Positions 33,306 to 59,254 of a stretch of 64,000 bases of DNA are shown one piece after another. The number at the start of each line of letters is the position of its first letter. The stretch's first letter is position 1. The DNA is taken from contig JADFKK010000005.1 of the NCBI GenBank assembly GCA_022564995.1, forward strand, positions 1,352 through 65,351. Direction: 5' to 3'. The position numbers and the translations under genes were made by a program. This DNA is from Planctomycetota bacterium (GTDB lineage Bacteria > Planctomycetota > Planctomycetia > Pirellulales > JADFKK01). Under the pieces are notes generated by a model. It was not told the origin of the DNA. It was given only the letters and a program-made list of their open reading frames with translations, and made no database searches.

Positions 33306-35144
33306 TTAGTCGAGTTGAAACTGTGCCAAATACTCGTCTCGCCGATTCGTTTCGGCGTCGGGCTGCTCTTTCTTCAAGAGTACGAAATTCTCCAGCACCA
33401 ACACATCCATGTCCGTGGCCATGAAACAGCGGTAGGCGTCTGCCGGCGTGCAGACAATCGGCTCGCCGCGGACGTTAAAACTTGTGTTGATTAAAATCGG
33501 ACAGCCCGTCTTCTCCGCGAAGCGTTTGATCAGCCGGTAGTATTGCCCATGCCGCTCGGGATCGACCGTTTGTACGCGGGCCGAATAGTCGACGTGCGTA
33601 ATGGCCGGCACTTCGGAGCGGCAGGCCTTCAGCTTGTCGAGGCCGATCAGCCCGGACGCCTCTCCGTTCAAATCCGCTCGCTTCGACTCCTGGACGTCGG
33701 CCACCATCAGCATGTACGGGCTCTGTTCGTGAGGCCGCATTTCGAAATACTCGTCGACCCGCTCTTCGAGGATCGAGGGAGCAAACGGCCGGAACGATTC
33801 ACGAAACTTGATCTTCAGGTTCATCACCGACTGCATTTTGCGGCTGCGGGCGTCGCCCAGTATGCTGCGCGCGCCGAGAGCCCGGGGCCCGAACTCCATG
33901 CGGCCTTGCATCCAACCGACGACCTTTTCATCGGCCAGCAGCTCGGCAACTCGATCGCAAAGATCGTCATCGCCGTCGCTGCGGCAATACACCGCACCGG
34001 TCTCGTCGAGAAACTGTCGAATTTCGTCATCGGAAAACTGCGGCCCCAGCAGCGATCCGCTTTGGCTGTCGAGCGGTCCGCATTCGCGCGGCTTGTCGAG
34101 CAATTGATGCCAGATGAACAGGGCCACGCCCAACGCGCCGCCGGCGTCGCCCGCGGCCGGTTGAATCCAGACGTTCTCGAAAGGTCCCTCGCGAAGAATG
34201 CGGCCGTTGCCCACGCAGTTCAGCGCGACACCGCCGGCCAGGCACAGATTCGACATGCCGGTTTCGGCATGAACGTGCCGGGCGATTCGCAGCATGACCT
34301 CCTCGGTGACCAACTGGATCGAAGCGGCGATGTCCATTTCGCGCTGGGTAATCGGCGATTCGCTTTTTCGCGGCGGTCCGCCGAACAGCCGGTCGAACTT
34401 TCGCGAGGTCATCGTTAACCCCTGCGGATAATTGAAATACGACATGTCGAGGCGAAACGATCCGTCGTCCTTAATGTCGATCAGTTTCTCGCGAATCAAC
34501 TCGGCGTATTTCGGCTCGCCATAGGGCGCCAGGCCCATCAGCTTGTACTCGCCCGAATTGACGCGAAAGCCGGTGAAGTAGGTCAGGGCCGAATACAGCA
34601 GCCCCAGCGAATGGGGAAAGTGAATTTCGTGCGTCAGGTGGATCTTATTGCCGCGGCCGTAGCCGAAGCTGGTGGTCGCCCACTCTCCAACACCATCGAG
34701 CGTGAGAATGGCCGCCTCTTCAAACGGCGAAGGGAAAAACGCACTGGCGGCGTGCGACTCGTGATGCTCGGTGAAGACGAAGCGCCGCTTGTAAGCCCCG
34801 TCTAAACTCTTCGACATTTCGCGCGGCAGATGCAGCTTCTGCTTGAGCCACAGCGGCATCGCCTTGAGAAACGAGCGAAATCCGGCCGGCGCGTAGGCCA
34901 AGTAAGTCTCCAGCAGCCGCTCGAACTTCAACAGCGGCTTGTCGTAAAAGCCGACATAATCGAGCTGCTCCGGCCGCAGCCCCGCCTCGGCAAGGCAATA
35001 CTCGACCGCCTGCTGCGGAAAAGCGAAATCGTGCTTCTTGCGCGTAAACCGCTCCTCCTGCGCCGCCGCCACAATCCGTCCGTCAACCACCAGGGCCGCG
35101 GCCGAATCGTGATAAAAAGCGGAGATACCGAGAATTGCGGTCAT
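33306..35144 (-). CDS. carbamoyltransferase (NodU/CmcH family)
   Basis: 612 aa. ILGISAFYHDSAAALV start. HHESHAASAF. LCLAGGVALNCVGNG. C-terminal INTSFNVRGEPIVCTPADA. Confidence 0.9.
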   Translation of the reverse strand: MTAILGISAFYHDSAAALVVDGRIVAAAQEERFTRKKHDFAFPQQAVEYCLAEAGLRPEQLDYVGFYDKPLLKFERLLETYLAYAPAGFRSFLKAMPLWLKQKLHLPREMSKSLDGAYKRRFVFTEHHESHAASAFFPSPFEEAAILTLDGVGEWATTSFGYGRGNKIHLTHEIHFPHSLGLLYSALTYFTGFRVNSGEYKLMGLAPYGEPKYAELIREKLIDIKDDGSFRLDMSYFNYPQGLTMTSRKFDRLFGGPPRKSESPITQREMDIAASIQLVTEEVMLRIARHVHAETGMSNLCLAGGVALNCVGNGRILREGPFENVWIQPAAGDAGGALGVALFIWHQLLDKPRECGPLDSQSGSLLGPQFSDDEIRQFLDETGAVYCRSDGDDDLCDRVAELLADEKVVGWMQGRMEFGPRALGARSILGDARSRKMQSVMNLKIKFRESFRPFAPSILEERVDEYFEMRPHEQSPYMLMVADVQESKRADLNGEASGLIGLDKLKACRSEVPAITHVDYSARVQTVDPERHGQYYRLIKRFAEKTGCPILINTSFNVRGEPIVCTPADAYRCFMATDMDVLVLENFVLLKKEQPDAETNRRDEYLAQFQLD

Positions 35145-35557: not shown

Positions 35558-35587
35558 TTGCTTTTCGGCGGGTTACCATGGTACAAT
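35558..35587 (+). promoter_or_regulatory. possible sigma-70-type promoter of the selenoprotein-candidate gene
   Basis: TTGCTT (35558-35563), an 18-nt spacer, then TACAAT (35582-35587), about 50 nt upstream of ATG 35635. Consensus match only. Confidence 0.25.
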
Positions 35588-35634
35588 TTGCCCAGGTGTA
35601 TCTCATTTCGTTTGTTCCGCACGAGGATTCCGCC

Positions 35635-36909
35635 ATGGTCACGAGAATTAGCGTCACGAGAATCAGCGTTGTCGTTCTAGCCGTTCTCTCGCTGGTTGCG
35701 AGCGTCCAAATGGGCACGGCGGCGGAGCGGATTTCGAAAATCCCAATGCGCGACTTTCAGCGGTTGCATTCGATGATGAAACCGCAGTTTGGCGAAAGTC
35801 CTTGGCGTGAGGTTTCATGGCTAACCAATATCACCGAAGCACGACGCCGCGCGTTGGCTGAGGATAAGCCGCTCGTGATTTTCACGGCCGCCGACGGTAG
35901 CCCGCTCTGTCGCACGTGAGGGGCTTGCACGTCGAACCGCGCTCGCTGGTTCACCGGTGCTCAGGTTGAGCCCAAATACATCAACAAGCACTTCATCGCA
36001 GTTGCTCTGGATTCCTACTTTCGCGGCAACTCGCATGACGTGGCGTTCTGCAAGAAGGTGGGCGCTGGCGGAAACCACTTGGTCGCGACGACCGCCTCCG
36101 GCCACAGGCTGGGCGGGAAAGCGCATTTGCGTTTGCGAAAAAGAGAACTCGCCGCCGTGCTTGTCGAGTACCGAAAACTTCCCACAGCCGAACGCACTCC
36201 GAAGCTGGAGGATCCTAGTAAAGCAACTCCGCCGCGACGCGCCGTGCCCAAGTCGCCACCAGGCGGCTTGATTCTGCGAGGATTCTGCACCTATCTGCGC
36301 CGTGACGCCGCCCGTAAGATCGCGCGTTCCAAGGAATACTACTACAAGGAAAACCCGATCCACTGGGCCGCCGAAACTCAGAGTGACATGTTGTGGTTGA
36401 CCGAAGCCGAATGGAAGTCGCTCGTTCCCGCCGATCCGAAGCCGGGTGACCACGTGGAAGTGGCGACCGCAATCCAGCGGCGGTTCTTTAGCACCATCGG
36501 CATCGACTACATGCAAGGTAGCGTCAGGTCTCTCCCACCGCGTGAAATCTCCATGACGTTGACGGTCGAGCGGGTCACAACCGGTGGGATCACGATGCGG
36601 CTTGATGGATACGGTCGGATGGGTAAAGAATTTGATAAAACGCTGCGAACGGAGGCGCACGGCCGCGGCTGTGAGGTCCGCGTGCTTGGGCTGCTTAACT
36701 ACAATACCAAATCGAAAACATTTGACCGATTCGACATCGTTGGCGTCGGCGACGCGTGGGGTAAGCGGCCTCGGGAGATCCGCATCAAGAATTACCCGTG
36801 GAAGTACGGAATCGCCTGCGAACTGGTGACAGGCGATGCGCCCATCGACCGCATTCCGCCGTACAACCTGTTGCACTATAATGAGGCCGGCCCGTACTTT
36901 GCGAAGTGA
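35635..36909 (+). CDS. candidate selenoprotein: secreted thioredoxin-fold protein with in-frame TGA (35917-35919) in a CxxUxxC motif, plus uncharacterised C-terminal domain
   Basis: Track ORFs 35578-35919 and 36040-36909 share one frame and are separated only by this TGA. No other stop and no ATG occurs in the 120 nt after it. Read-through gives KPLVIFTAADGSPLCRT-U-GACTSNRARWF...FIAVALD (thioredoxin-like layout). Start chosen at ATG 35635 after GAGGA (signal peptide MVTRISVTRISVVVLAVLSLVASVQMGTA). If Sec is not decoded, this is two ORFs or a pseudogene. Confidence 0.55.
35920..35973 (+). promoter_or_regulatory. SECIS-like stem-loop immediately 3' of the in-frame TGA
   Basis: Three helices are stacked. 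GGGCT (35921-25) pairs with AGCCC (35969-73). GCAC (35927-30) pairs with GTGC (35957-60). GAACC (35934-38) pairs with GGTTC (35948-52). The apical region is GCGCUCGCU, which can add 2 bp to leave a GCUC tetraloop and a bulged U. The loop starts 21 nt after the TGA and begins with G. Confidence 0.4.
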
Positions 36910-36974: not shown

Positions 36975-38012
36975 TCATTCCACCTCTGGAGTGACGACTC
37001 GATGACCCAATTCGGAAGACAGAACCTGCGCCAACTGCCGAGCCATGCGGTCATTTGCCTCGCGATTGGGATGGCCGTCGAAGAGACCGTTTCTGAATCG
37101 AGAGAGGTTCTCCGCCGGTTCAAAGGCGTCGCCGAGGTCGACGTATGAGACATCGAGTTCCGAGCAGATTTTCGTAAGTTCTTCGACGATCTCGGCATAC
37201 GGATTTGCGTCTCGATGAAACATGGCAGGAGCGCGGGCAACCATGAATCGCACTTTTCGTTTGTCACAATCCTGTCGCATCGCCGAGATTGCTTCCTTCA
37301 GACGGTCCCGGCCGCCTTCGTGGAAGTTTCGAAGCTCACTCGAGACATAACCTTCTCCCAAGTCCATGCCCAAGGCGCGGGAAAGTCCGGCGATTCGACT
37401 AGACGACCATCTTAGGAATGCGGACCGACATGGACACAACCGACGGAATTCGAAAACGGAATCTGGATCGACGTCTTGCGGAATGGTCGGATCCGGTTGC
37501 GGAGTGTCATTAAAACAGAAGACGTAAATGACGATGTCGGGTTCAAATTCCAACACCCGATTGTGGAGCATAATGGCGACGTGATCGGCGCTATAGCCAG
37601 GTATTCCGCAGTTCAGTACCTCAGCATCGCCGCCGGCCTCGGAGATCCACTGTTCGACGCGCACCGGCAGCGTGTCTTCCGATGCGACGAGTCCGAATGT
37701 GAACGAGTCCCCGACGAGCGCGATCCTCATTCCTTGCGGCGACTTCGAGAATTCGCGGCCCCGGAAACCAAGGCTGTTGATGTGCAGTTCGTGATTAAAA
37801 TAAAGGGTGTCGAAGTCGGGACGTAACTCGTAGGGGACGGCACCGCTTGTCGATGTTCGAAAGGGCGTGAGACCGTTTCGCGGAATATGAAAACTGAAGA
37901 AGATCTCCAACGCAACGAAGACGGCGACCGCTGAACAGAGCAACAGAACGAGGCGGGCGATCAGGGGATACTTGCGGCGCAAACGATTCGGCCGTTCTTT
38001 GGACGTCGTCAT
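36975..38012 (-). CDS. SGNH/GDSL-type hydrolase, membrane-anchored
   Basis: 345 aa. N-terminal TM (LIARLVLLLCSAVAVFVALEIFF). Block I GDSFTFG. Block III-like FCFND. C-terminal D..H-type block (LFDGHPN). Confidence 0.7.
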   Translation of the reverse strand: MTTSKERPNRLRRKYPLIARLVLLLCSAVAVFVALEIFFSFHIPRNGLTPFRTSTSGAVPYELRPDFDTLYFNHELHINSLGFRGREFSKSPQGMRIALVGDSFTFGLVASEDTLPVRVEQWISEAGGDAEVLNCGIPGYSADHVAIMLHNRVLEFEPDIVIYVFCFNDTPQPDPTIPQDVDPDSVFEFRRLCPCRSAFLRWSSSRIAGLSRALGMDLGEGYVSSELRNFHEGGRDRLKEAISAMRQDCDKRKVRFMVARAPAMFHRDANPYAEIVEELTKICSELDVSYVDLGDAFEPAENLSRFRNGLFDGHPNREANDRMARQLAQVLSSELGHRVVTPEVE

Positions 38013-38652
38013 CGAGAATTACCTGAGCGGAGTCGTTGAAGGGAGGTTGTTTTCCGTGATAGATCGGAACCGATCAGAATTTCTCATCATCGTTCCAAGC
38101 TTGCTTCTGCCCAATTTCTAGGGCCATACCTAGTATACACCGCGTCCTCCTGTCAAGAACGATCAGACGGATCGAAGGCCTACGGTCCTCGGTCGGTGGG
38201 CTGTTTTTCGCCCCCGACTGGAGAAAAATCGCCTGCCTGGGCGAAAAAAATGACGTAGGGTTCATTCGGCAGGTGGTTTTCCGCCGCCTGCGACATTTCC
38301 CTGTAACGTCCGATTCCGGACCGTCAGGTTTCGTCTGGTGGGGATTTCGCTTGTCTGCTATACGACACGCTGAAGACAGACCTTTTCAGGATGAGCGATT
38401 CTGCTCACTCACTGCGTCCCCCCAAAGTGCGGACCGGGTGATCGGTCACGACAACGGCTGCATTGATAGCCGATCCACTGCCGATATGATGAATGGCCCG
38501 GATGGTATCGGGTCTCTCAAACGCATCAGTTTTCATTCATGTGAGTTGTGTCCCCTTCCCGTTTCGTCAAGGCCCCACGTTCTAGTCAGCGACCACCAAG
38601 ATTCAGACTTGCTTTATTTCCGTCACGTGTCGATCGAAATGGAAGAACCAAC

Positions 38653-41600
38653 ATGGGAACCACGCGCAGCACGCAGGATTTGTTGTACCGGCCGAAGTTT
38701 GAGAACTGCGAGCCTCGGCTTTTGATGGCAACCGATGCGGTCGGCGAGATTCCGATCGGACAATTCTCCGGCAGCGAATCTGGCGACCGACAGATCGCGA
38801 TGTTCGCTGAGCCGGGGCAGTACGTGCCCACGATGATGGATCCGTGGATGCCCAATCCGGTGTACGGCTCGACGTTTCGCTCGGCACTCGGTGGCGGAAC
38901 TGGTTTATGGAGCGACGCGAGCACTTGGTCGGCCGGCCGGGCGCCCATGGCAGGTGACCGCGTGATCATCGCTGCCGGCGATGAGGTGCTGATTCAGGAT
39001 ACTGGCGCGATTGCTCACAGCATTGGAGTGTACGAAGGCGGGAAGCTGCGCTTCGCTACGAACGTGAACACCGAGTTGAAAGTGGTGACTCTGCTGGTGC
39101 TGGGCGAGTTGGAGATTGGCACCGCGGCCAATCCAATCGACGCCGGCGTCACGGCCACGCTGACCATTCGCGACGTGCCGTTTGATTTTCAGGAGGACCC
39201 GGGACAGTATGGTCATGGTCTAGTGGCCACCCAGAACGCCAAGGTGCGGATTCATGGGCGAGCCCTGTCGGAGACGTTCGTGCGGCTTGCGAGTGAGCCG
39301 CGCGCGGGAGATACGACGCTGGTGATGGAAAATGGGGTGACAGGTTGGCGGGTGGGCGACCAGATCTTGATTCCAGACACGAGGCAACTACGTTCATCTC
39401 AGAATCCGTGGCTGGGCGGAACCTATAATCCAGAGTGGGAAGAGTTGACGATCGCCAACATCAGCGGCACTACGATCACGCTCTCTAGCCCGTTGACGTT
39501 CGACCATTTGGGTGCCCGTGACGGCGACGGAATTCTTGACTTCTTGCCGCACGTGGTCAATCGCACGCGCAACGTGGTGATTCAGTCCGAAAATCCCAAC
39601 GGCGTGCGCGGGCATACACTCTACGGCAATCGCTCGGACATCGACATCCGCTACGCCCAATTCAAGGACATGGGGAGGACGAAAAACCTTGCATTGGACA
39701 ACACGACGTTCGATGAAAATGGCAATGCGACGCACATCGGCACGAATCAAATCGCTCGTTACGCAGTTCACACTCACCATCTGATCGGTCCCACCAGCGC
39801 GCAATCCAACGGTTATCAATTCACACTTGTCGGCAATTCGATCGACGGCGGCACCCAAGACAACAACCAAAAATGGGCGATCACGATCCACGGATCACAC
39901 TACGGTCTGATCCAAGCAAACGTCGTTTACAACATTTCCGGCGGAGGGATCGTCACCGAAGATGGCAACGAGAGTTTCAACGTGTTCGACGGCAACTTCG
40001 TCATGCGCTCAAAGAGCATCGGCAGTGGATGGCGAATCAGCGGATCGGAGAAAAACCCGGACGGTCGCTCGGCGACGGGATTCTGGTTTCGCGGGCTGAA
40101 CAACTACATCCGTAACAATGTCGCGACGAACATCCTTTCCTACGATGAGGCAGAAACGGGCTACGGCTATAAATTTTTGAACAACTTCGTCGGTGATAAG
40201 ACGATTCCCGCATTCCAGGGGGCCAACCCCAACGAGAATGGCGTCACGGTCAATATGTATGAAACCGCGATTCCGCAGTTCGAGAACAACGAGGCTTACG
40301 GAGCGATCGAATCGGCCTTAACTTACTGGTGGATTGGAACGCATTATCAAACTCCGGAGCCGGACGCGGGCACGACGGTAATTAAGGATTTCAAGGTATG
40401 GCACACTTTTGGAGCCGGCATTTATCACTATCCGTCAGCCAACGTGCTCCTTGACGGACTCGTTATGCGAGGTGACGGATCGGGCACGAAAACGAATGTC
40501 GGACTGATGTTTGGCGATTATATGGCGCAAGACGTGATCATACGCGACGCCGATATTCAGGGATTCGGAGCTGGAATCAAACTCACGGAGTTCGGGATTG
40601 GCGCTACCGTAATTGAAAACTCCTTCCTGCGCACCAAGTTTAGGAACATTGAAGTAGAAACGCACCGCAGCACCAGTGGTACGCATGTACTGAAAGCGAA
40701 AAGCGCAATCATTCGAAATGTTCGATTTGATTCTTGGGGCAGCGAAGCCACCGTCAACATTAAAACCGACTACGTCTCTCTCTCTTACGAAAAATCAGAT
40801 GTCATTCTTCTCGATGAAATCTTTGTCTACGACTACAACGGGGTAAGCGGCGACGACTTCCAGGTATTCTACCTCGAGCAGGCACCAGATTTCATCGTCC
40901 CACAATCGACGAGCCTTTCCGTTGGCTCTCCCGAGGCGGGGCTCACGAATCAACAGAACTGGGATACCTATGGCATTGCCATTGCAGGCGCTGTTGCTCC
41001 AACAACGGCCACCCGCGCTGGAATCGACGGATTTGTGCTGACGCTGTCCACGCCGGCTCCAACCGCACCCACTGGCGTCACCGCCAGTCCCGTCTCCAGC
41101 ACCCGAATCGATCTCTCCTGGAACGACGTCTCCGGCGAAGACGGCTATCGAATCTATCAATGGATGGGCTCGGAAAGCCAGATGGTCGGGTCCGTCGGCG
41201 CCAACCAGACCAGTTTCTCCGTGACCGGCCTTTCGCCCGGACAGAGCTACTCGTTCACGGTCGAGGCTTACAACGGGGCCGGATCGGCGTTTAGTTCCTG
41301 GCAGTCGGCTGATACGCTGTTCGCCGCGCCGACGCAAATAGGCTCGGTAACGGCCGCCGGAGTTTCGGCGTCGCAGATCGACCTCTCCTGGAACGACGTC
41401 TCCGGCGAAGACGGCTATCGAATCTATCAATGGATGGGCTCGGGAAGCCAAATGGTCGGCTCCGTCGGCGCCAATCAGACCAGCTTCTCCGTGACCGGCC
41501 TTTCGCCCGCGCAGACATACTCGTTCACGGTCGGAGCCCACAACGGCGCCGGATCGACATGGAGTTCGTGGCAGTCGGCCGAAACGCTGTCTGCCACGCC

Positions 41601-42441
41601 GACGCAAATCGGTTCCGTGACGGCCATCGGCGTTTCGGCGTCGCAGATCGACTTGTCGTGGAGCGACGTGCAGTATGAAACGGAATACCGCGTCTACCAG
41701 TGGACCAGCGGCGGCAGTCAATTGATTGGCACCGCAGGGGCCGACGCGACCAGCTATTCGGTGACCGGCCTGTCGACGCAGCAAACCTATTGGTTTACGA
41801 TCGGGGCCTACAACAGCGCCGGATCGACATGGAGTTCGTGGCAGTCGGCTGAAACGCTGCTCGCTCCAACCCCGATGGGCTCCGTGACGGCCACCGGCGT
41901 TTCGGCGTCGCAGATCGACTTGTCGTGGAGCGACGTGCAGTATGAAACGGAGTACCGCATCTACCAGTGGACTGGCAGCGGCAGTCAAATGATTGGTACC
42001 ACCGGGGCCAACGTGACCAGCTTCTCGGTGACCGGTCTGTCCTCCCAGCAAACTTATTGGTTCACGATCGGAGCCCACAACGGCGCCGGATCGACATGGA
42101 GTTCGTGGAGTAGCGCCACCACGCTCGCCGCCGCCAAAACAGGTCGGTCGGAACTCTCCGAAGAGGGCGGGCAACTGCTAGACGTCGTCGCGCTGAAAAA
42201 GCTACTCGGCAAGGCGACCGAGCAGGCGCTGGGAGAGTCCATCGACACAACGAAGGAAAAGGGCCTGCCTCTGCTGGCCCGCGCCGTTGATGACGCCATG
42301 GAGCACATCAAGGCGCTGTCGACGATGGTCGGCGGAGACGAGTCGGACGTACCCGAACTGCGCAGTCCTGAAGACGACGACGTCGAGGCCCATCGAGAGA
42401 TCGTCGACCGGCTGCACGAGACATCACGCTCGTTCGCCTAG
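38653..42441 (+). CDS. giant secreted G8-domain / parallel beta-helix protein with four C-terminal FN3 repeats
   Basis: Start taken at ATG 38653 after GGAAG; the track ORF begins at 38548 in an AT-richer stretch. N-terminal RPKFENCEPRLLMA motif. G8-like LWSDASTWSAGRAPMAGDRVIIAAGDEVLIQD. Beta-helix repeats (NRTRNVVIQS, GNSIDGG, NNVATN). Four FN3 units at 41065-42129. Confidence 0.85.
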   Translation: MGTTRSTQDLLYRPKFENCEPRLLMATDAVGEIPIGQFSGSESGDRQIAMFAEPGQYVPTMMDPWMPNPVYGSTFRSALGGGTGLWSDASTWSAGRAPMAGDRVIIAAGDEVLIQDTGAIAHSIGVYEGGKLRFATNVNTELKVVTLLVLGELEIGTAANPIDAGVTATLTIRDVPFDFQEDPGQYGHGLVATQNAKVRIHGRALSETFVRLASEPRAGDTTLVMENGVTGWRVGDQILIPDTRQLRSSQNPWLGGTYNPEWEELTIANISGTTITLSSPLTFDHLGARDGDGILDFLPHVVNRTRNVVIQSENPNGVRGHTLYGNRSDIDIRYAQFKDMGRTKNLALDNTTFDENGNATHIGTNQIARYAVHTHHLIGPTSAQSNGYQFTLVGNSIDGGTQDNNQKWAITIHGSHYGLIQANVVYNISGGGIVTEDGNESFNVFDGNFVMRSKSIGSGWRISGSEKNPDGRSATGFWFRGLNNYIRNNVATNILSYDEAETGYGYKFLNNFVGDKTIPAFQGANPNENGVTVNMYETAIPQFENNEAYGAIESALTYWWIGTHYQTPEPDAGTTVIKDFKVWHTFGAGIYHYPSANVLLDGLVMRGDGSGTKTNVGLMFGDYMAQDVIIRDADIQGFGAGIKLTEFGIGATVIENSFLRTKFRNIEVETHRSTSGTHVLKAKSAIIRNVRFDSWGSEATVNIKTDYVSLSYEKSDVILLDEIFVYDYNGVSGDDFQVFYLEQAPDFIVPQSTSLSVGSPEAGLTNQQNWDTYGIAIAGAVAPTTATRAGIDGFVLTLSTPAPTAPTGVTASPVSSTRIDLSWNDVSGEDGYRIYQWMGSESQMVGSVGANQTSFSVTGLSPGQSYSFTVEAYNGAGSAFSSWQSADTLFAAPTQIGSVTAAGVSASQIDLSWNDVSGEDGYRIYQWMGSGSQMVGSVGANQTSFSVTGLSPAQTYSFTVGAHNGAGSTWSSWQSAETLSATPTQIGSVTAIGVSASQIDLSWSDVQYETEYRVYQWTSGGSQLIGTAGADATSYSVTGLSTQQTYWFTIGAYNSAGSTWSSWQSAETLLAPTPMGSVTATGVSASQIDLSWSDVQYETEYRIYQWTGSGSQMIGTTGANVTSFSVTGLSSQQTYWFTIGAHNGAGSTWSSWSSATTLAAAKTGRSELSEEGGQLLDVVALKKLLGKATEQALGESIDTTKEKGLPLLARAVDDAMEHIKALSTMVGGDESDVPELRSPEDDDVEAHREIVDRLHETSRSFA
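41065..42129 (+). repeat. four tandem ~270-bp (267-270 bp) coding repeats (FN3 modules) with long near-identical DNA stretches
   Basis: Unit starts are 41065, 41326 (261 bp after unit 1), 41596 (270 bp) and 41863 (267 bp). Units 1 and 2 share CTCCTGGAACGACGTCTCCGGCGAAGACGGCTATCGAATCTATCAATGGATGGGCTCGG. Units 3 and 4 share TCGCAGATCGACTTGTCGTGGAGCGACGTGCAGTATGAAACGGA. Confidence 0.9.
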
Positions 42442-42518: not shown

Positions 42519-45500
42519 TCAAAAGACGTTCAAACGCATCGACGCGGTTGAGTCCTGATCGACAGCCACGGCCTGAAAACGCCCGAGCGTGGAATCCGTC
42601 GGCCCAGGCAATTCTCGACGTGCGGCGCCGCCGCTATCGCTCCGCCGAGATTCGTGGTACATCGCGTCCGTCTTGCCGATGCGGTGAAAGACTTCTGTCT
42701 TGGCACGAATGCGGTCTTCGTCCGAAATGGACGATCTGGCCGCCGTGGCTTCCTGGTGTGGCGAGCCTGCCGGCGCTGGCCCTGTCCAGTTGGCCAAGAG
42801 AACGGTCAAGTCCTCGAAGTTCACCGGGGTGTTGGCCGCGTCGACGAGATTGCCCTGGGTGGCCGCTACGTCTTGATTCCAACTGGCCAACAACACCGTC
42901 AAATCCTCGAAGTCGACAAATCCGTTACAAGTCAGGTCGGCCACCACGCAGTGACGTGCGACGACCTCTACGACAAACGCGGTCGCGGCACCGCTCTCGT
43001 TGCCAGCCACGTCTCGGGCAATTGCCGAAAAACTATAAGTCCCGTCCGCCAGTATCGTGCTCGTGGCATCAACGATCCACTCCCCCGCCTCATTGGTCGT
43101 CGCCACGCCCAGCATACCGAGCTCTGGTTCGCTTAGAGTGACGGTGCTATCAGGCTCCGCCGTGCCGGAGAAAACCAGCGTCGCATCGCTGGTCACCGCG
43201 TCGCTATCACTTGCTCCGTCGTCCGCGTCGATGGAAACAACGACCGGGGCCACGGGTGCCACTGTGTCGATTTCGACGATCAACTCCGCAGAGACAGCAC
43301 TGAAAATTCCGAACGCGTTCTCGGCGGTCGCCGAGAAAACGTAGCTTCCGTCAGGCAGCACCGTCCCTGTTGCGTCGATCGACCAATCGCCCGTGGCGCT
43401 GGCCGCCGCCGTGCCGACGGTGCCCAGGCTCAACTCGCGGAGCGTTACATTGCTGCCGGCTTCCGCTGTGCCGAAAAACACCAGCGTGTTGTCCCCGGTG
43501 ATGCCATCGGCGACGGCCGTGTCTTGGTCGATGCCGACAATCAGCGGCACGGGTGGCGGCGTGATGGAGTTGGCTCCGGCGAAAAAATTCTGTCTTGTCT
43601 CGTCGAGCGATAAGGCCCGGCTGTAAATTGCCACAAGGTGCATTTCGCCCGTCCACGGTCGGTTGGCTGTAATCTCGTTGGCCAGCGCGAACCGGAAGTT
43701 GGGATTCCAACTTGACGTGTCACCGCCGACGAGCGAACTGGCGACCATGACGCCGTCAACGTAGGTGCGAGCGTTGCCGTCTGCGTCTCGCGTGTAGACG
43801 ACGTGTGCGAGCTGCGCGGTTTGAACCAGACCGGGCGTCACCAAGGCAGGCTGCCCGCCGGCATTCGTCGTCGTCGTCCGTAAACGGTTCACATACGTGT
43901 CGGTCTGTTGGCCAAACATGAAGTTCTGTTCGGATTTGTCCTTTGAGAACGACACGATCCGAGCGGGGCCTGAAAGATCGAGCGATGCTGGACGAATCCA
44001 CGCCTCGATGGTGATGGCATTGCTGGCGGTGATCGCGTTGTAGATTTTCGTGGCCGGCACAATCGACGAAATGATCGTCGACGTGTCTACGGTCAATCCT
44101 CCGTCGATCCACGTCACGGCCGCAATGTTTGAAATGCTCAAGTCGAAAGGCGTTCCAAAACCGGATGTGTCGTGGACTACATCGCCTGAGTTCTCTTCTA
44201 ATTCATAGAGAACCACCAGGCCGTCGCCAACGCGCGCCCGGCGCGTGAAGTTGACCTGAACGCCATCTTGTGGGAGCCGACCGCCGCCGGTTCCCATCAG
44301 GCCCGTGACGAGGAGACCATACGCTTGACCGTCCGTGAGATTCGACGTGGACAAGATGACGGTCATTTCGTCGTCGGCCACCACGGCGCCCAGAATCGAA
44401 AACCCCGAGGTCTCGTAGTTCTCCAACTTTTCGGCCGCCTGGTGATCGAGTGGCTCACTGAATACAACGCGGACGCTGTTTTCGTTTTCTGCCCGAACGG
44501 CGTCAATCGTCAGTATCGCGACGGAAAAGGAATCGCTACGATTGCCTTCGGCGCCGTCCACGTTTTCGGCAGATACCTGGTACGTGTAAGACGTTGCCGG
44601 CTCAACTGTAAGATCGGCAAAGGCGGTTGTCGCCGAGCTGCCGAGCTCGACTCCGTTGCGATAGATGCGATATCGCTTGATGCCGGTTTCAGGGTCCGAT
44701 GCCGCATCCCACGCCAGATCGATGCGGGCTTCCGACACGACGATCCCCCGGAGATTCGCCGGCGCGTCAGGAGGCGTGACGTCCAACACGATGTTGGCGG
44801 CGCCCGGCGTTCCGCCGGTCGTGCCTGGCCCCCAATGCGATGCGTCGTTGACGAAAGCCACCGGAGCAAGGCGCGATAGCGAAGAACCGACGCCGTCCGC
44901 CTGATCACTCCACGGTGCCCGATCATTATACTTGACGCGCTCCACCAGAATCTGCGGCACGGTCATGTCGGCCGCCGGAGGTGCCGGCATGTAGATCGCG
45001 ACGGTTTCGCCGCTGTTGTCGAGTTGGCCGACATACGGCCCGAGAATGACCACGCTCTGGGGCACATCGTGGGCCAATCGGAATTCGGCCGGATCGATGC
45101 CGACAACGAGCAAATACTCCCCGGCATCGAGCGTGATTCCGGTTGGGAAACCAAATCTCACGCCATTGCCAAAACGCCACGTATTGGCCGGATGGTCTGG
45201 ATCGAAGAGCGCTACGGGCGAATCACTTCGATTGAAGAGTTCGATGAATTCCGCGCCCCCGTCCGGCGGGTTGTACATGATCTCGTTGATGATTACGTCC
45301 GGGATGCGTGGCGGCGCGTTTGCTGCGCCGAGTGTTGGCGAGTCGGTTGCCACGAAATCCACGTCGCCAAACGAATTGACGTGGCGGCCGAGCGTCGCGT
45401 CGAGTTCGGTCGCGTCGAACGATACGCCTTCCCGGTAACCTCCCGCTTGCCCTGTATTCGGATCGACCGACGTGAGCCGAACCGTTCCACCCTGCTCATT

Positions 45501-48500
45501 CAGTGCGAAGATCGCACGCGCTCCGGAATCGGCAGGATTTCCGAAGTGCATTTCTTCCGTAAACGCGACGAAACCGTTTGCAGGGATTTGCGTTCCGGCG
45601 GGAAGTTTGTACTTCGTGAGATCCGCCGCGTCGTCGCTGAGAAACCATCCGCCAACGTCGATTGGCTCCGAAGTCGTGTTGAACAATTCGATCCAGTCGC
45701 CCGTAGGCGCTTCGGAGTGGGCCAGAATCTCGTTGATCACGATGGCGCCAGCCGGTGGTCCGTTATCCGCGGCGCCCGGCGTGCCGCCAAACGTCGCTCC
45801 CGGCCGCCAACCTTCGGCAATACTCCAGGCGTCGAGGTCGGCCTGCTCATCGACGATCACCAGCGAGAATCCCCGTCCGTCCGTTACGCGATACCAATCG
45901 TCGTCGTAGGTGAATTGCTGGATCAACTGCCCCAGGCGAGTATCGAGGCGGATCAGCTCGCCGCCATTGTCCAGCCGCGTATCGCCAGAGAATTCGCCCG
46001 CCACCGACAGGTCATCGCCATATCGCGAAACGAACGCCGCGGTGTTTCGCACAATGACAACTCGCTCGGCAGGAGCCAGACTCGCGATATTCCCCATGGC
46101 GAAGTTGAATTCGACACCGGCGCTAAACCGCACTTCTTCAAGAAGAATCGTCTGCTCACCGGTATTCATCAGTTCGATGAACTCAAACTGATCGTTCCCA
46201 ACATCCGATTCACCGCCTGCGACGTCGGCGCGCGGCGGATTGTACATGATCTCCGTGATTCGCAGCGACGCAGGCTCCCCGACGATGAAAGTTACTTCGA
46301 TCAACGGACTCCACTGTCCGTCAAGCAGCACGCGAGCTTTGATGGTGGTGCTGGCGTTGAGCGCGATTGGTTCACCGTCGAATAGCTGGGCACTGTCCGC
46401 GTTGAGGGCGCCTCCAACCAATCGCGGATCGGAATCGTCCGTTGTGTAGTAAACCGTTCCCGCTGCGTTTTGGTTGTCAAAGTCAAGAAGAAACCCGACG
46501 CTGACTTGGCCGCCATGCTGATTTAATTCGGGCGCCTGAATCGAAGGAAAAAAACCGGTACGCTTGAGCTGGCCTAATACTTCGTTCGTGCGACGGGGGA
46601 AATAGTTGGCAAACAATTCGCTTTGCACTGCCAGCCAGTCGGTTCGCGTATAGGGCTGGCTCCGCCCGTTGTCTCCCCAACGGGCAGACTCGGCGGTGAT
46701 GGCGCGATCGATCTCGTCAACGAGCTTGCGGTAAACGGCGCTGGCGCCCTCGGGAGACATCACTCCGGCGTTGAAAAAATGTTGTTGAACGCGGTCGGCG
46801 AAGAGGAGTCGATATTCGACGTTTGAACTTAGTGCCCGATGAATGTTCGAGGGCGCACCGGGGCGAAAAACACCTGTCACGTCGATCCCCACATCCGTCA
46901 GCACGCCTTCGGCGTCCCAGCTATGAAAGCGCCATCGACCGTCGAGGGCCTCGCGGTTGAACGTGGCATACCAATTGTGTCGATCCCAATCGAAGTTACC
47001 GGCATAGAAATTGGCGACCATGTAGTCAGCCAAGCTCACCAAATCGACGACGCCGGCGACCGCTTGGTAGTTTTCGTCGATCGACAAGTCTCGGCCTACC
47101 AGATCGAGCATCGCGGCGTAATTGTCCCCAGAGCCGCTGACCAACGTGAATTGGCTGTGTTTCAGTACATCGTAGTCTTCCTTTTTCCCTCCGAAATAGC
47201 TTGATGCGAATGATTCGTCCGGCCGCTCGTGAACATTATACAAACCCCAATACAATCCATTAATGTAGACGTGATGAAACCGTCCGTGAGGGCCGACACC
47301 ACTCATGAGATTCTGCAGATTCGCGACGAATTGGTCTTGGATATATTTGGAGTTGTCTGCCCAAGTTGGTCTTTTCCATTCGACGAACGTATAGTTATAG
47401 AGTGCGTCGAGAATCAGCGTGTCGAAGCGGTCCGTCGCCTCGTCACCAAAAATCGGATAGTCGAGCTTGGTTCGACCGGGACGTTTGAATTTCAGCCGCA
47501 TCGAAAGCTTGTCGACTTCCCAGCGATTGGTGCTGGAACCTCCTTGAATCTCCACGGTCCCATCAATCTGAAACGCGGAACTGCCGTCGGTGTTGATTCG
47601 TTCAACCGACACGGCCCGCTCGATCCCCGAGCCCTGAATGTAAATCCCCTGGCCGCCTGCGCCGAACATGTCCTCCCATGGCAGCACCAGCGAGAGCGTC
47701 GGAATACTTTGCAGATCGTCGGTCGTCAGGCGGTTGTCCAGGTTGCCACTCTCGACGATTTCTGGGTCGATTTCCCAATCGGGACCCGCGTGGCCCCAGT
47801 CGGCAAAACTCGGCAGACCAGCGGCGTCCTGCCGCAACACGTCGCTTAAGAAGAGATAGGTTTGCGTGTCGACGTTAGTAGGAAGAAAGCCGGGCCTAAA
47901 CGCCGCGGCCCGCAGCGTGGTCGTCGTGGTGATGTCGATGGGGACACTGAAAACCGCGCCGCGCGTGGCGGTCGGTCGGCTGCCGTCGAGCGTGTATCGA
48001 ATCTCTGCGCCGGCGGTTTCCGTCGCGATCTCGACTTGAAACGCTTCGGAAAAAAAACCGCGATCGACACTGAATTTGGTGTCCTGCACAACGCCCAACG
48101 CGCCCTCGACATTGGCTTCACCCGGCGTCGGCGCCAGGAAATACTGGCGAGGTCCGACCGTGGTGACTTCCGCCACCAGTTCGGGCACGACAAGAAACTC
48201 ACCGCTCGACGGTGTATCGTTCAGCGCATGAATCGCCAGAACATTGCTGCCGGCGCGCAGCGCGCCGACGTAAGGGGTAACATCGATCGTCTCGATAACC
48301 AACGCTTCGCTCGTCGGCCGGTCCGCTGTCGAAGTCGAGTCAAAATCGAGCTCGGCCGGCACGTTGCGCTCGGCGATCTGTCGTCCGTTCAGATAGGCGA
48401 CGAATCCGTCGTCAAACTTCATCCGCAACGTCAAGGTGTTGACGACTCCAGGTTGATCTAGATCGAACGGCAGGCGTACATACGCGGTGCCGTTTTGACC

Positions 48501-49283: not shown

Positions 49284-49800
49284 GGATGCCACCTCCTGAT
49301 GCGAACCGATGGTTCACGCTTTTCGTCCCGTCGCCAATGCTAATCCTGGAACACCGCCGCGTCTCGCGAAGCGTGAGATGTTCGATAGCACCTGCGGCAT
49401 CTGATACTGTAAACGCCGCCAAGAGGCGGCGCGAAATCTTTCTGCGCGAGTCGGCCAATGGCCTGATTGTACGCTCGCAATTCAGATGAGTCACGGAAAT
49501 GGGGCCATATTTGTGGAAAATGCGCTGAAAACTGGCCTATAACGCCCGAAAAAATGCAGATCGCCAGCCCAGCGGCCGGCTGGCCTCTCGGAGAGGCACT
49601 ACTGACCGAGATGCGTGGCCAATTGCGAAAAATTCGCGATTAGCACAGAAACATATGCATTTTTGTTGCAATCGCTGGAAAACTTGTCATACTCAGAACG
49701 AGTCTTGTCGGGAAAGGATTTTTGTGTTTTCCCGGAATTGATAACAACAGGCATCGAGGCTATGCAAGTTGGCCTCGTCAACGTGGAGAGGAGTAAGCTC

Positions 49801-50499
49801 ATGAGCGGAACAACAAACCGTGCGATGCTGGCAACCGCGATCGTGGTGTTTCTCACGGTTTCCAACGGTAGCGTTCGCGCCGACATTTCCATATCTAGTC
49901 CCGCGGATTTCTCTTCCAGCGCGATCGACCTCGGTTTCGATAATCTGCCGATTGGCACGGAAGTGACCGATCACTTCCAGGCAAGGGGCGTGATCTTTGA
50001 AGCGATTGATGGTATTGGCGACCCACGTATTGTGATCAACAATGATGGCAACGGCGGTCAGGCCATTCACGGTGGCCAAGCCGACCTGACCATCTTCACC
50101 TCTGGCAATCGAAACGACGACGCTCATCTGCTCATCAAGTTTGTCGATCCCAGCACCGGGCAGCCGAGCGGCACTTCGGCAGCCGGTCTGACGTTTGTCG
50201 ACATCGCGACTCCGATCGGCAAGGCATTCTTTTTCGATACCCAGGGCGAGTTGATACGCGAGTTCGTCCATGTCGCGCCGGGGCGAGCGTTTTGGGGCAT
50301 CGAAGTTGAACCGGGTGAGAACCGCATCGGGTCTATCTTGGTGGAGAGTCTCATTACCCCGACCCTCACCGAATCTTATTCCATCGATCAACTCATCTTC
50401 GAGCCGATTCCGGAACCCAGCGCGCTAATCCTTGCCGCGATTGGCCTGATCGCTCTTGGATGCTCCCGCTTGGGTCGTTGGCGTCGGGCCACTGCTTGA
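49801..50499 (+). CDS. PEP-CTERM sorting-domain protein
   Basis: 232 aa from ATG 49801 after GGAGAGGA. Signal peptide. C-terminal FEPIPEPSALILAAIGLIALGCSRLGRWRR, i.e. PEP motif, TM segment and basic tail. Confidence 0.8.
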   Translation: MSGTTNRAMLATAIVVFLTVSNGSVRADISISSPADFSSSAIDLGFDNLPIGTEVTDHFQARGVIFEAIDGIGDPRIVINNDGNGGQAIHGGQADLTIFTSGNRNDDAHLLIKFVDPSTGQPSGTSAAGLTFVDIATPIGKAFFFDTQGELIREFVHVAPGRAFWGIEVEPGENRIGSILVESLITPTLTESYSIDQLIFEPIPEPSALILAAIGLIALGCSRLGRWRRATA

Positions 50500-59237: not shown

Positions 59238-59254
59238 GATGTCGTCCTTACTCC

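What the first reader, a model, noticed from the sequence alone, without database searches (positions are those of the whole stretch)
35635..36909. In-frame TGA inside a CxxUxxC-type redox motif of a thioredoxin-fold ORF: candidate selenoprotein
Seen: ORFs 35578-35919 and 36040-36909 are in the same frame. The only stop between them is TGA 35917-35919. The 120 nt after it contain no stop and no ATG; the second track ORF merely begins at an internal GTG. Read-through gives ...KPLVIFTAADGSPLCRT-[TGA]-GACTSNRARWFTGAQVEPKYINKHFIAVALD... That is a beta strand, then C-R-T-U-G-A-C, then a helix and a hydrophobic strand ending in D, the position where thioredoxin-like domains carry CxxC.
Known: bacterial selenocysteine is encoded by UGA and nearly always replaces a redox Cys. 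CxxU and UxxC thioredoxin-fold selenoproteins form a large class.
Inference: this is one secreted protein of about 424 aa containing Sec, rather than two genes or a fresh pseudogene.
Basis: partly seen in the sequence, partly recalled or inferred. Interest (0 to 1): 0.8.

Follow-up and report, generated by a model that had tools for sequence, protein, structure and literature searches.

The report
New secreted thioredoxin-fold selenoprotein family
The in-frame TGA at 35917 almost certainly encodes selenocysteine in the active site of an exported thioredoxin-fold protein, and the same TGA is kept in 69 of 70 related genes, all of which public annotation splits into two "hypothetical proteins".

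Summary
A single in-frame TGA (35917-35919) joins ORFs 35635-35916 and 35920-36909 into a 424-codon gene with a Shine-Dalgarno-like site and a signal peptide.

The TGA sits at the same codon in 64 of 65 related loci (54-70% identity) and in 5 of 5 more distant subfamily representatives (30-42%). Protein sequence is conserved on both sides of it. Database gene calls for relatives are always split at this point.

A profile of the region aligns the TGA column with the first Cys of the CHWC motif of a DUF255 thioredoxin-like structure (3ira). An AlphaFold model of a 67%-identical homologue's domain (pLDDT 85.5) matches AGR2, ERp19, DsbD-gamma and DsbH folds. Two distant full-length homologues carry Cys at that column.

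The conserved motif is U-G-A-C (UxxC). The Cys three residues upstream of U is not conserved.

A SECIS-like hairpin lies 17-42 nt downstream, but the statistical support for it is only modest.

The window holds no Sec machinery, so that could not be tested.

The C-terminal beta-rich domain has no Pfam or PDB match.

The family is absent from NCBIfam and from a 2026 inventory of 119 prokaryotic selenoprotein families. I rate it a new member of a known kind.

The parts
35623..35627 (+). Shine-Dalgarno-like GAGGA, 7 nt upstream of ATG 35635
   Evidence: Read directly from the sequence. It supports 35635 rather than 35578 as the start. Homologues also start about 25-30 residues before the conserved 'IP..DF.RL' block.
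35635..36909 (+). Complete selenoprotein gene: 424 codons including one UGA = Sec (codon 95), plus its own TGA stop at 36907-36909
   Evidence: for the frame. for conservation across the TGA.
35635..35715 (+). Predicted Sec-type signal peptide, about residues 1-27 (MVTRISVTRISVVVLAVLSLVASVQMGTA). The exact end is inferred.
   Evidence: Basic n-region followed by a hydrophobic stretch. It is modelled as a lone helix at residues 7-23. Equivalent hydrophobic N-termini occur in all homologues. In fused paralogues the module lies behind a TM segment.
35743..36189 (+). Thioredoxin-fold domain (Thioredoxin_7 / DUF255 / DsbD-gamma-like), about residues 37-185, interrupted in annotation by the UGA
   Evidence: Profile A5 against PDB: 3ira E=7e-4. 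17 of 22 members hit PF13899 weakly. The AF2 model of homologue P0390 has pLDDT 85.5. Foldseek finds AGR2, ERp19, 3ira, DsbD-gamma and DsbH at probability 1.0.
35908..35910 (+). Cys at -3 from Sec (TGT); not conserved (S/G/A/C in relatives)
35917..35919 (+). UGA read as selenocysteine (residue 95), at the position of the nucleophilic Cys of a thioredoxin CxxC motif
   Evidence: TGA in 64 of 65 close loci and 5 of 5 distant loci. Cys occupies this column in P0254 and P0354. The column aligns to the first Cys of CHWC in 3ira.
35926..35928 (+). Cys at +3 (TGC), the presumed resolving residue of the U-G-A-C motif
   Evidence: TGC or TGT in 45 of 45 aligned close relatives. It is absent in four of the five distant Sec subfamilies sampled (L084, L085, L087, L088) and present in L086. 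It is therefore subfamily-specific.
35934..35952 (+). Best SECIS-like hairpin in the window: GAACCGC-GCUC-GC(U)GGUUC, 7 bp with a bulged U, loop 22-25 nt after the UGA, -6.7 kcal/mol
   Evidence: The outer stem pairs in 39 of 56 unique relatives. All sequences in which hairpin A falls to 5 or fewer of its 7 pairs (the window and five relatives with Arg+9 = CGC) have this hairpin complete with its inner stem.
35944..35959 (+). Alternative register of the hairpin (CGCUGG-UUCA-CCGGUG, -6.2 kcal/mol). It lies where most relatives form CCCGGUG-GUU-CACCGGG over codons A-R-W-F-T-G.
   Evidence: At least 6 of 7 pairs form in 48 of 56 unique sequences. Synonymous sites in the stem are unusually fixed: Arg+9 CGG 35/45, Phe+11 TTC 35/35, Thr+12 ACC 39/43.
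36268..36906 (+). C-terminal beta-rich domain of unknown fold class, about residues 212-424. Motifs: WLTEAEWKSL, RFD.VG.G.AWG, YGIACELV, IPPYNLLHY.
   Evidence: pLDDT above 90 over residues 250-410. No Pfam hit, no PDB sequence hit and no PDB fold hit. Highly conserved in alignment A1.

Best explanation
Window 35635-36909 is one gene for an exported protein of about 46 kDa. Codon 95 (UGA 35917-35919) is decoded as selenocysteine.

Sec occupies the nucleophilic position of the redox motif of a Thioredoxin_7 / DsbD-gamma / DUF255-type thioredoxin fold. It lies right after strand beta-1 (PLVIFTA), at the start of the first helix, and Cys98 three residues later completes a U-G-A-C motif.

The likely chemistry (inferred) is as follows. 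The selenolate attacks an oxidised substrate outside the cytoplasm, such as a disulfide, sulfenate or peroxide. Cys98 then resolves the intermediate into a selenenylsulfide, which a periplasmic reductant re-reduces.

The conserved beta-rich C-terminal domain probably supplies substrate or partner binding (inferred).

Recoding is presumably directed by a SelB-binding hairpin within the 17-42 nt downstream of the UGA. That stretch overlaps the highly conserved codons S-N-R-A-R-W-F-T-G.

Shown here: one continuous conserved reading frame, TGA conservation, the thioredoxin fold, and the alignment of the Sec column with catalytic Cys. Inferred: actual Se incorporation, export, redox chemistry and substrate.
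For: - The frame and motif are present as described.
- All 120 best C-terminal homologues are 285-337 aa calls that begin just after the TGA. All 120 best N-terminal homologues are 75-119 aa calls that end at it.
- In the DNA, TGA occupies the column in 64 of 65 loci at 54-70% identity. It also does so in 5 of 5 representatives at 30-42% identity, whose flanking residues differ: PLGPV-U-GQGY, PLGRN-U-GQNT, PLGHT-U-GGCH, FLGTT-U-GGAN, AAGC-U-NAGR.
- Distant full-length homologues carry Cys at or next to the column. P0254 and P0354 carry it exactly there.
- TGA is an ordinary stop elsewhere, including at this gene's own end at 36907-36909. This is therefore local recoding, not a reassigned code.
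- Thioredoxin fold: 3ira E=7e-4 with U aligned to the first Cys of CHWC; PF13899 weak hits in 17 of 22 members; Foldseek probability 1.0, E=2e-4 to 1e-3, to AGR2, ERp19, 3ira and AGR3, with DsbD-gamma and DsbH at probability 0.98-0.99, E=4e-3 to 7e-3.
- RNA: 54 of 56 unique sequences have one of two hairpins at +18 to +42, and the remaining two have their own. L055 has an 8-bp stem with a GGUC loop despite changed amino acids.
- Distant subfamilies have hairpins starting at +15 to +19 with loops CGUGU, GGC, GGUU and CGUGA.
- Synonymous diversity is among the lowest in the gene at codons +3 to +12 (ratio 0.58-0.64 against a mean of 0.87; two other 10-codon windows are as low).
- The 36-nt window after the UGA is more stable than the gene median in 52 of 52 genes.
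- Planctomycetes including Gemmata obscuriglobus are reported to carry selA, selB, selC and selD (PMC4807772).
Against: - No selA, selB, selD or tRNA-Sec lies in the window. The organism's ability to decode Sec is therefore unverified.
- The window's own downstream RNA is not significantly more stable than shuffles (z=+0.59) or than synonymous recodings (z=-0.89, p=0.2).
- The family-wide recoding z averages only -0.8.
- The hairpin register differs between clades, so no single SECIS model could be fixed.
- No Rfam hit.
- Pfam thioredoxin hits are all below gathering thresholds.
- The active-site loop is the least confident part of the model (pLDDT 54-63).
- No close Cys orthologue exists. Cys forms are only 24-33% identical.
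- One locus has TTA (L028).
- There is no experimental evidence of Se incorporation, and the substrate is unknown.
Confidence: 0.87

Rival explanations
1. These are two separate genes. A small secreted peptide (35635-35919) ends at a genuine TGA stop, and an independent downstream protein starts at GTG 36040.
For: This is how every public gene caller has annotated the relatives. The window's RNA structure is statistically unremarkable.
Against: - The 40 codons between TGA and GTG 36040 are the most conserved protein segment of the region (GACTSNRARWFTG.QVEP...). They stay in frame in every locus.
- The stop is TGA in 69 of 70 loci and never TAA or TAG.
- Gene callers pick different internal starts in different relatives (V, M or none).
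- A single thioredoxin fold spans the TGA, with beta-1 before it and alpha-1 and beta-2 to beta-4 after it.
- Distant homologues are uninterrupted proteins.
Confidence: 0.03
2. This is a recently inactivated pseudogene of a Cys-containing thioredoxin-like protein, in which TGC or TGT mutated to TGA.
For: TGA is one mutation from a Cys codon. Distant homologues have Cys there.
Against: The same TGA is present in 69 of 70 loci from soil, marine and freshwater metagenomes and from MAGs of Gemmataceae, other Planctomycetes and Verrucomicrobiales. These loci diverge down to 30% identity, yet the reading frames on both sides remain intact and under amino-acid conservation.
Confidence: 0.01
3. The UGA is read through, but with a standard amino acid (Trp, Cys or Gly by near-cognate or suppressor decoding) rather than selenocysteine.
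For: Sec machinery was not seen in the window. One database fragment shows W at the column (P0055). The SECIS statistics are weak.
Against: - The codon lies exactly at the catalytic Cys position of a thioredoxin fold, the classic Sec site.
- Cys, not Trp or Gly, is found there in uninterrupted homologues.
- TGA is a normal stop for this gene and its neighbours.
- Synonymous-site constraint and hairpins lie immediately downstream, as expected for a bacterial SECIS.
- P0055 has no contig, and its W is what a code-4-style translation of TGA would give.
- Sec machinery is documented in related Planctomycetes (PMC4807772).
Confidence: 0.07

Closest known systems
VPGUxxT family thioredoxin-like (seleno)proteins, types 1 and 2 (NCBIfam NF041382 / NF041383; 'hypothetical protein OS_HP5')
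   Same: Both are Thioredoxin_7-like folds with Sec at the first redox position. These are the best, though still weak, NCBIfam hits to the Trx-like region: E=0.027 for the window and 9.4e-4 for the best family member. Type 1 is also a longer protein, with a profile of 349 positions.
   Different: Scores of 11-14 bits fall far below the 350-bit cut-off. The motif here is (S/G)RT-U-GAC or PLGxx-U-G, not VPG-U-xx-T. The match covers only profile positions 21-105. The C-terminal domain is unmatched.
Trx7/PDZ domain-containing (seleno)protein (NF041199)
   Same: A Thioredoxin_7-type selenoprotein with an added C-terminal domain. Two of 22 members hit it weakly (E=0.06).
   Different: That family has a CxxU motif, with Sec in the second position, and a PDZ domain. 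Here the motif is UxxC and the C-terminal beta-rich domain has no PDZ or other Pfam match.
DUF255 / Thioredox_DsbH / Thioredoxin_7 fold: 3ira (M. mazei), DsbD-gamma, DsbH, AGR2/AGR3, ERp18/19
   Same: The fold and the position of the redox motif match. The profile aligns 'W..EA..kA..e.KP(i/l)..', beta-1, the redox motif and '..F....v...(i/l)...FV.V..D' to 3ira. Foldseek gives probability 1.0. These proteins are extracytoplasmic or ER-lumenal, like this one.
   Different: Those proteins use Cys (CxxC or CxxS). This family has a 6-residue insertion (DGSPLx) before the motif. It uses Sec almost without exception and carries a distinct C-terminal domain of about 210 residues. Pfam scores stay below the gathering thresholds.
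Classical UxxC thioredoxin, glutaredoxin and DsbA-like bacterial selenoproteins (PF00085, PF00462, PF01323 forms listed in PMC13188914 Table 1)
   Same: All have Sec replacing the N-terminal Cys of CxxC in a thioredoxin fold, encoded by UGA followed by a hairpin inside the coding region.
   Different: In those families the Sec forms are a minority among abundant Cys orthologues. Here every relative above about 35% identity that was examined has TGA, and Cys forms appear only among distant paralogues. Some of those paralogues are fused to Ser/Thr kinases or to an ECF sigma factor.

Membership tests
Bacterial selenoprotein (UGA-Sec recoding) | In-frame UGA conserved at the same codon in orthologues, with coding conservation on both sides | tested here: met
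   TGA in 64 of 65 close loci and 5 of 5 distant loci. The flanks KPLVIFTAADGSPL.RT and GACTSNRARWFTG are conserved.
Bacterial selenoprotein (UGA-Sec recoding) | Homologues with Cys aligned to the UGA | tested here: met
   P0254 (PLGCT-C-KAA) and P0354 (PLGCT-C-PGG) have Cys in the U column. Other distant forms have Cys at -1 or -2. These are only 24-33% identical, and no close Cys orthologue was found.
Bacterial selenoprotein (UGA-Sec recoding) | SECIS stem-loop shortly downstream of the UGA | tested here: inconclusive
   Hairpins at +17 to +42 occur in all 56 unique close sequences and in most of the 5 distant ones (L087 only outside its MFE fold). Synonymous constraint is present there. However, the window's z-scores are not significant, the register differs between clades, and Rfam gives no hit.
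Bacterial selenoprotein (UGA-Sec recoding) | selA, selB, selC (tRNA-Sec) and selD present in the genome | not testable with these tools
   None lies in the 64-kb window: ARAGORN finds 0 tRNAs, Rfam finds 0 families, and a Pfam scan of candidate-sized ORFs finds none. The literature reports full sets in Gemmata obscuriglobus, Isosphaera pallida and two other Planctomycetes (PMC4807772).
Bacterial selenoprotein (UGA-Sec recoding) | Selenium physically incorporated at the UGA position | not testable with these tools
   This needs 75Se labelling or mass spectrometry.
Thioredoxin fold, Thioredoxin_7 / DUF255 / DsbD-gamma group | Pfam HMM score at or above the gathering threshold (PF13899 or PF03190, 27 bits) | tested here: not met
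   The window protein scores 13-16 bits (E=0.013-0.11). 17 of 22 family members give weak PF13899 hits, the best at E=9.5e-4.
Thioredoxin fold, Thioredoxin_7 / DUF255 / DsbD-gamma group | Thioredoxin-fold three-dimensional structure | tested here: met
   The AF2 model of 67%-identical homologue P0390 has pLDDT 85.5 and pTM 0.78. All top Foldseek PDB hits are thioredoxin-fold proteins (AGR2, ERp19, 3ira, AGR3, ERp18, DsbD-gamma, DsbH), probability 0.96-1.00. The window protein's own full-length model was poor in this region.
Thioredoxin fold, Thioredoxin_7 / DUF255 / DsbD-gamma group | Redox motif after beta-1, at the N-terminus of alpha-1 | tested here: met
   The profile alignment to 3ira puts the U column on the first Cys of CHWC and the +3 Cys on the second. 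The model shows a helical turn at G-A-C directly after the U-equivalent residue.
VPGUxxT thioredoxin-like selenoproteins (NF041382 / NF041383) | HMM score at or above the curated cut-off, and the VPG-U-xx-T motif | tested here: not met
   11-14 bits against a cut-off of 350. The motif here is RT-U-GAC-T.
Trx7/PDZ selenoprotein (NF041199) | HMM score at or above the cut-off, a CxxU motif and a PDZ domain | tested here: not met
   E=0.06 at best, in 2 of 22 members. The motif is UxxC and there is no PDZ domain.

The most novel reading that the evidence does not exclude
The two-domain module (Sec or Cys thioredoxin-like domain plus the unmatched beta-rich domain) may be an extracytoplasmic sensing or ligand-handling unit of Planctomycetes and Verrucomicrobia, rather than a generic disulfide oxidoreductase.

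Its non-Sec paralogues form the ectodomains of membrane Ser/Thr kinases and of an ECF-sigma fusion protein. The stand-alone form has become almost obligately dependent on selenocysteine, even in subfamilies that lack any resolving Cys.

That would point to a new selenium-dependent chemistry, or to a redox, metal or metalloid sensing function, carried out with a C-terminal domain of a new fold.
Probability: 0.2. Interest if true: 0.75.

Novelty: new member of a known kind. Interest (0 to 1): 0.58.

Why it matters
Thioredoxin-fold UxxC selenoproteins are a well-known class, so the recoding mechanism itself is not new.

What is new is the family:

- It is large. There are 762 representatives at 50% clustering with E<=1e-3, found in soil, freshwater and marine metagenomes.
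- In every database entry seen, it is annotated as two unrelated hypothetical proteins.
- It is absent from NCBIfam release 20 and from the May-2026 inventory of 119 prokaryotic selenoprotein families.

The family is unusual in using Sec almost without exception across 30-95% identity, whereas in most families Sec forms are a minority among Cys orthologues.

It also links an uncharacterised, confidently folded domain to redox chemistry outside the cytoplasm, and to kinase and sigma-factor signalling paralogues.

Recognising it would correct hundreds of gene models. It would extend the known selenoproteome of Planctomycetota and Verrucomicrobiota. It would also give a tractable target for asking why some proteins cannot replace Sec with Cys.

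Tried and rejected
- **Machinery and RNA families.** The ARAGORN and Rfam scans of the window for tRNA-Sec or SECIS families found nothing.
- **Sec genes in the window.** A Pfam scan of ten ORFs of selA/selB/selD-like size found only unrelated families: a sigma-54 activator, PheA, an amidohydrolase, a PQQ propeller, a DAO oxidoreductase, SGNH hydrolases and a GT4 glycosyltransferase.
- **Other selenoprotein genes in the window.** A scan for in-frame TGA with at least 70 open codons on each side found only this site with a Cys-containing context. The 49615/50512 pair is two adjacent genes.
- **Global RNA-folding statistics.** The shuffle z was +0.59 for the window. Synonymous recoding gave a mean z of -0.8. 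RNAalifold on the ungapped alignment gave only a weak consensus of -4.5 kcal/mol. I therefore do not claim a proven SECIS.
- **Conserved neighbours.** All-against-all comparison of flanking ORFs in 35 loci found no recurrent partner gene.
- **Fold of the C-terminal domain.** Foldseek against PDB found nothing with E<=0.001. The profile against PDB sequences found nothing. Pfam found nothing.
- **Structure with U replaced by C.** The full-length model with X at the Sec position was poor over residues 84-248. The thioredoxin fold was therefore tested on the close homologue P0390 instead.
- **Close Cys orthologues.** None was found in three homology searches and one exhaustive search.
- **Global TGA reassignment.** Considered and rejected, because TGA terminates this gene itself.
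Full report
**1. The observation**

- ORF 35578-35919 and ORF 36040-36909 share a frame, and the only stop between them is TGA 35917-35919.
- The next 40 codons have no stop and no ATG. The downstream ORF in the mechanical list simply starts at the first in-frame GTG (36040).
- The likely start is ATG 35635. It has a GAGGA seven bases upstream (35623-35627). It gives an N-terminus with two Arg followed by a hydrophobic stretch (MVTRISVTRISVVVLAVLSLVASVQMGTA), which looks like a Sec-type signal peptide.
- Read-through gives 424 codons, with ...KPLVIFTAADGSPLCRT-U-GACTSNRARWFTGAQVEPKYINKHFIAVALD....
- The gene ends with its own TGA (36907-36909). TGA is therefore an ordinary stop in this organism.

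**2. Comparative test of the TGA**

*Database gene calls.* A homology search with the read-through product returned 384 proteins. All 120 listed are 285-337 aa and cover only the C-terminal 66-76% of the query. A search with the 94 residues before the TGA returned 302 proteins. All 120 listed are 75-119 aa. Every public gene call for a relative is therefore cut at this point.

*The DNA itself.* I fetched DNA for 4 genome loci and 79 metagenome loci.

- Among the 65 loci that cover the site, the aligned codon is TGA in 64 and TTA in one (L028).
- The flanks are nearly invariant: KP(L/I)VIFTAADGSPL(S/G/C/A)RT-U-GACT(S/A/G)NRARWFTG.
- The Cys three residues before U in the window is not conserved. 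The Cys three residues after U is conserved, as TGC or TGT in 45 of 45 sequences.
- The subfamily motif is therefore UxxC (U-G-A-C).

*Wider family.* An exhaustive phmmer search of 1.84 billion cluster representatives found 762 relatives with E<=1e-3. Most are again about 290-350 aa and start near query residue 105-120.

I looked up the DNA for five of these, at 30-42% identity. All five have an in-frame TGA in the same column, preceded by a small "gene" of 71-95 codons. Their contexts are AADGSPLGPV-U-GQGYGSR, AADGHPLGRN-U-GQNTFNR, SANGHPLGHT-U-GGCHCGR, TAAYPFLGTT-U-GGANAIR and GSGGAPAAGC-U-NAGRLGR. Sec is thus conserved well beyond the window's subfamily, while the +3 Cys is not.

*Uninterrupted homologues.* A few distant relatives (24-33% identity) span the site without a stop.

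- P0254 and P0354 have Cys exactly in the U column (PLGCT-C-...).
- P0272, P0368, P0266, P0287 and P0275 have Cys one or two residues earlier.
- P0287 and P0354 carry an N-terminal Ser/Thr kinase domain and a hydrophobic segment before the module.
- P0272 carries ECF-type sigma-70 regions 2 and 4.

*What this excludes.*

- A pseudogene is excluded by the same stop persisting across this much divergence.
- Two independent genes are excluded, because the stop is never TAA or TAG, the frame never shifts, and the best-conserved residues lie between the TGA and the callers' arbitrary starts.
- A reassigned genetic code is excluded, because TGA ends the gene itself.

**3. What the protein is**

*N-terminal domain.* Pfam and NCBIfam give only sub-threshold hits for the window protein: Thioredoxin_7 E=0.11, DUF255/DsbH E=0.24, and the VPGUxxT selenoprotein family type 1 E=0.21.

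I built a profile of the 155-residue region around the Sec column. It used 15 Sec forms, with U written as C, and 7 uninterrupted forms (A5).

- Its best hit among PDB sequences is 3ira, a DUF255 thioredoxin-like domain, at E=7e-4. The U column falls on the first Cys of CHWC and the +3 Cys on the second.
- 17 of 22 members hit Thioredoxin_7 individually, the best at E=9.5e-4.

The full-length AlphaFold model was poor across the active-site region, because the usable alignment rows break at the TGA. A database fragment 67% identical to the window's domain (P0390, with Ser at the Sec column) modelled well, at pLDDT 85.5 and pTM 0.78. It shows the order helix, beta-1, loop and turn, helix, beta-2, helix, beta-3, beta-4, helix. 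Foldseek then returned only thioredoxin-fold proteins of the AGR2/AGR3, ERp18/19, 3ira, DsbD-gamma and DsbH group, at probability 0.96-1.00.

*C-terminal domain.* Residues 250-410 are confidently modelled (pLDDT above 90) as long antiparallel strands with two helices. This half has no significant match in the PDB by fold or by sequence, and no Pfam family.

*Genomic context.* No neighbouring gene is conserved across loci. In the window the gene sits alone between a carbamoyltransferase (33306-35144, minus strand) and an SGNH hydrolase (36975-38012, minus strand). The surrounding region holds surface-protein and glycan-modification genes.

**4. The recoding signal**

Bacterial Sec insertion needs a SelB-binding hairpin just downstream of the UGA (established knowledge).

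*Hairpins found.*

- In 48 of 56 unique close sequences, codons A-R-W-F-T-G form CCCGGUG-GUU-CACCGGG at positions 26-42 from the U of UGA, with at least 6 of 7 pairs (hairpin A).
- In the window and five relatives where A falls to 5 or fewer pairs (all six have Arg+9 = CGC rather than CGG), a second hairpin is complete with its inner stem instead. In the window it is GAACCGC-GCUC-GC(U)GGUUC, positions 18-36, coordinates 35934-35952, -6.7 kcal/mol (hairpin B).
- Together these two forms cover 54 of 56 sequences.
- The remaining two have their own hairpins. L055 has different amino acids here (R-S-C-T-G) yet forms an 8-bp stem with a GGUC loop.
- The five distant subfamilies, whose protein sequence differs here, mostly have hairpins starting 15-19 nt after the UGA, with loops CGUGU, GGC, GGUU and CGUGA; for L087 such a hairpin appears only outside its minimum-energy fold.

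*Statistical support.*

- Synonymous-site diversity is among the lowest in the gene at codons +3 to +12 (0.58-0.64 of expectation against a mean of 0.87; two other 10-codon windows reach 0.55-0.56). Phe+11 is TTC in 35 of 35, Thr+12 is ACC in 39 of 43, and Arg+9 is CGG in 35 of 45.
- The 36 nt after the UGA fold more stably than the gene median in 52 of 52 genes. The median percentile, however, is only 0.14.
- Against this, the window's own segment is not more stable than shuffles (z=+0.59) or than synonymous recodings (p=0.2).
- The sequences are phylogenetically related, so these counts are not independent.
- Rfam has no match.

I therefore treat the SECIS as plausible and located, but not proven.

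**5. What could not be tested**

The window contains no tRNA, no Rfam family and no selA, selB or selD among ORFs of suitable size. It contains no other candidate selenoprotein gene. The organism's Sec machinery thus remains unverified.

The named relatives are Planctomycetes, Gemmataceae and Verrucomicrobiales MAGs. A published genome analysis reports complete selA/selB/selC/selD sets in Gemmata obscuriglobus, Isosphaera pallida and two other Planctomycetes (PMC4807772). Sec decoding in this lineage is therefore credible.

**6. Mechanism**

*Shown:* one gene, a conserved in-frame UGA at the nucleophilic position of a thioredoxin-fold redox motif, a Cys at +3 in this subfamily, and an N-terminal hydrophobic leader.

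*Inferred:*

- The protein is exported.
- The selenolate of Sec95 attacks an oxidised substrate.
- Cys98 resolves the adduct to a selenenylsulfide.
- An envelope reductant recycles the protein.
- The C-terminal domain binds the substrate or a partner.

Two observations leave room for a different role. Subfamilies without the +3 Cys keep Sec. Non-Sec paralogues serve as the outer domains of kinases and of a sigma-factor fusion. The alternative roles these suggest are single-selenol chemistry, or a sensing or ligand-handling function.

**7. Comparison with what is known, and novelty**

- The class is well known: UGA-encoded Sec replacing the first Cys of CxxC in a thioredoxin fold.
- The nearest named selenoprotein families are the VPGUxxT thioredoxin-like proteins and the Trx7/PDZ protein. 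They match only at noise-level scores and differ in motif and architecture.
- None of the 119 families in the May-2026 inventory (PMC13188914, Table 1) corresponds to this family.
- No NCBIfam release-20 model recognises it.
- Sources name its fragments only as "hypothetical protein".

I therefore rate it a new member of a known kind. Its unusual features are near-obligate Sec use, a C-terminal domain with no structural match, and signalling-protein paralogues.

**8. Verdict**

My confidence that this is a genuine selenoprotein gene is about 0.87. The specific redox function and its substrate remain inferred.

Noticed in passing
L028 position 614-616: This is the only one of 70 loci with a sense codon (TTA, Leu) at the Sec column. 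The rest of the gene is intact. It could be a sequencing error in a 1.7-kb metagenome contig, or a real loss of Sec.
   Followed up: no
P0055, P0390 (database fragments, no contig on record): Two 'src' protein fragments span the Sec column, with W (P0055) and S (P0390). W is what a code-4-style translation of TGA would give. P0390 has further odd substitutions nearby (TPHR for TSNR), which suggests read errors.
   Followed up: partly
P0287, P0354, P0272 (distant homologues): In these proteins the whole two-domain module, without Sec, lies behind a hydrophobic segment. In P0287 and P0354 it follows an N-terminal Ser/Thr protein kinase. In P0272 it follows ECF sigma-70 regions 2 and 4. This suggests the module can act as an extracytoplasmic sensor domain.
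   Followed up: partly
L084-L088 (distant subfamilies): Four of the five distant Sec-containing subfamilies lack the +3 Cys (U-GQGY, U-GQNT, U-GGAN, U-NAGR). L086 (U-GGCH) retains it. L088 has Cys immediately before Sec (C-U). The UxxC motif is therefore not universal in the superfamily.
   Followed up: partly
window 49615-50499 and 50512-51903 (+): Two long ORFs share a frame and are separated only by TGA 50497-50499 and 12 nt. There is no Cys near the TGA. The second ORF has its own ATG and a DUF4185 domain, and the first has no Pfam hit. They look like two adjacent genes, not a selenoprotein.
   Followed up: partly
window 17507-23746 (-), 38548-42441 (+), 42519-49292 (-): There are three giant predicted surface proteins. 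The first has 2079 aa with Big_9 and cadherin-like repeats. The second has 1297 aa with G8, CEMIP beta-helix and fn3 domains. The third has 2257 aa with lamin-tail domains, a CotH kinase domain, a LamG domain and Ig-like domains.
   Followed up: partly
window 33306-35144 (-), 36975-38012 (-), 55703-57145 (+), 58059-59357 (-): The selenoprotein gene lies in a region rich in glycan and surface modification genes: a NodU/CmcH-type carbamoyltransferase, two SGNH/GDSL hydrolases (one AlgX-like) and a GT4 glycosyltransferase. None of these neighbours is conserved next to the homologues elsewhere.
   Followed up: partly
L001, L004 (CAYYUU01, CAZPPD01): These MAG records are titled 'uncultured Alcaligenaceae'. 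Every other named relative is from Planctomycetes, Gemmataceae or Verrucomicrobiales. The contigs may be mis-binned.
   Followed up: no
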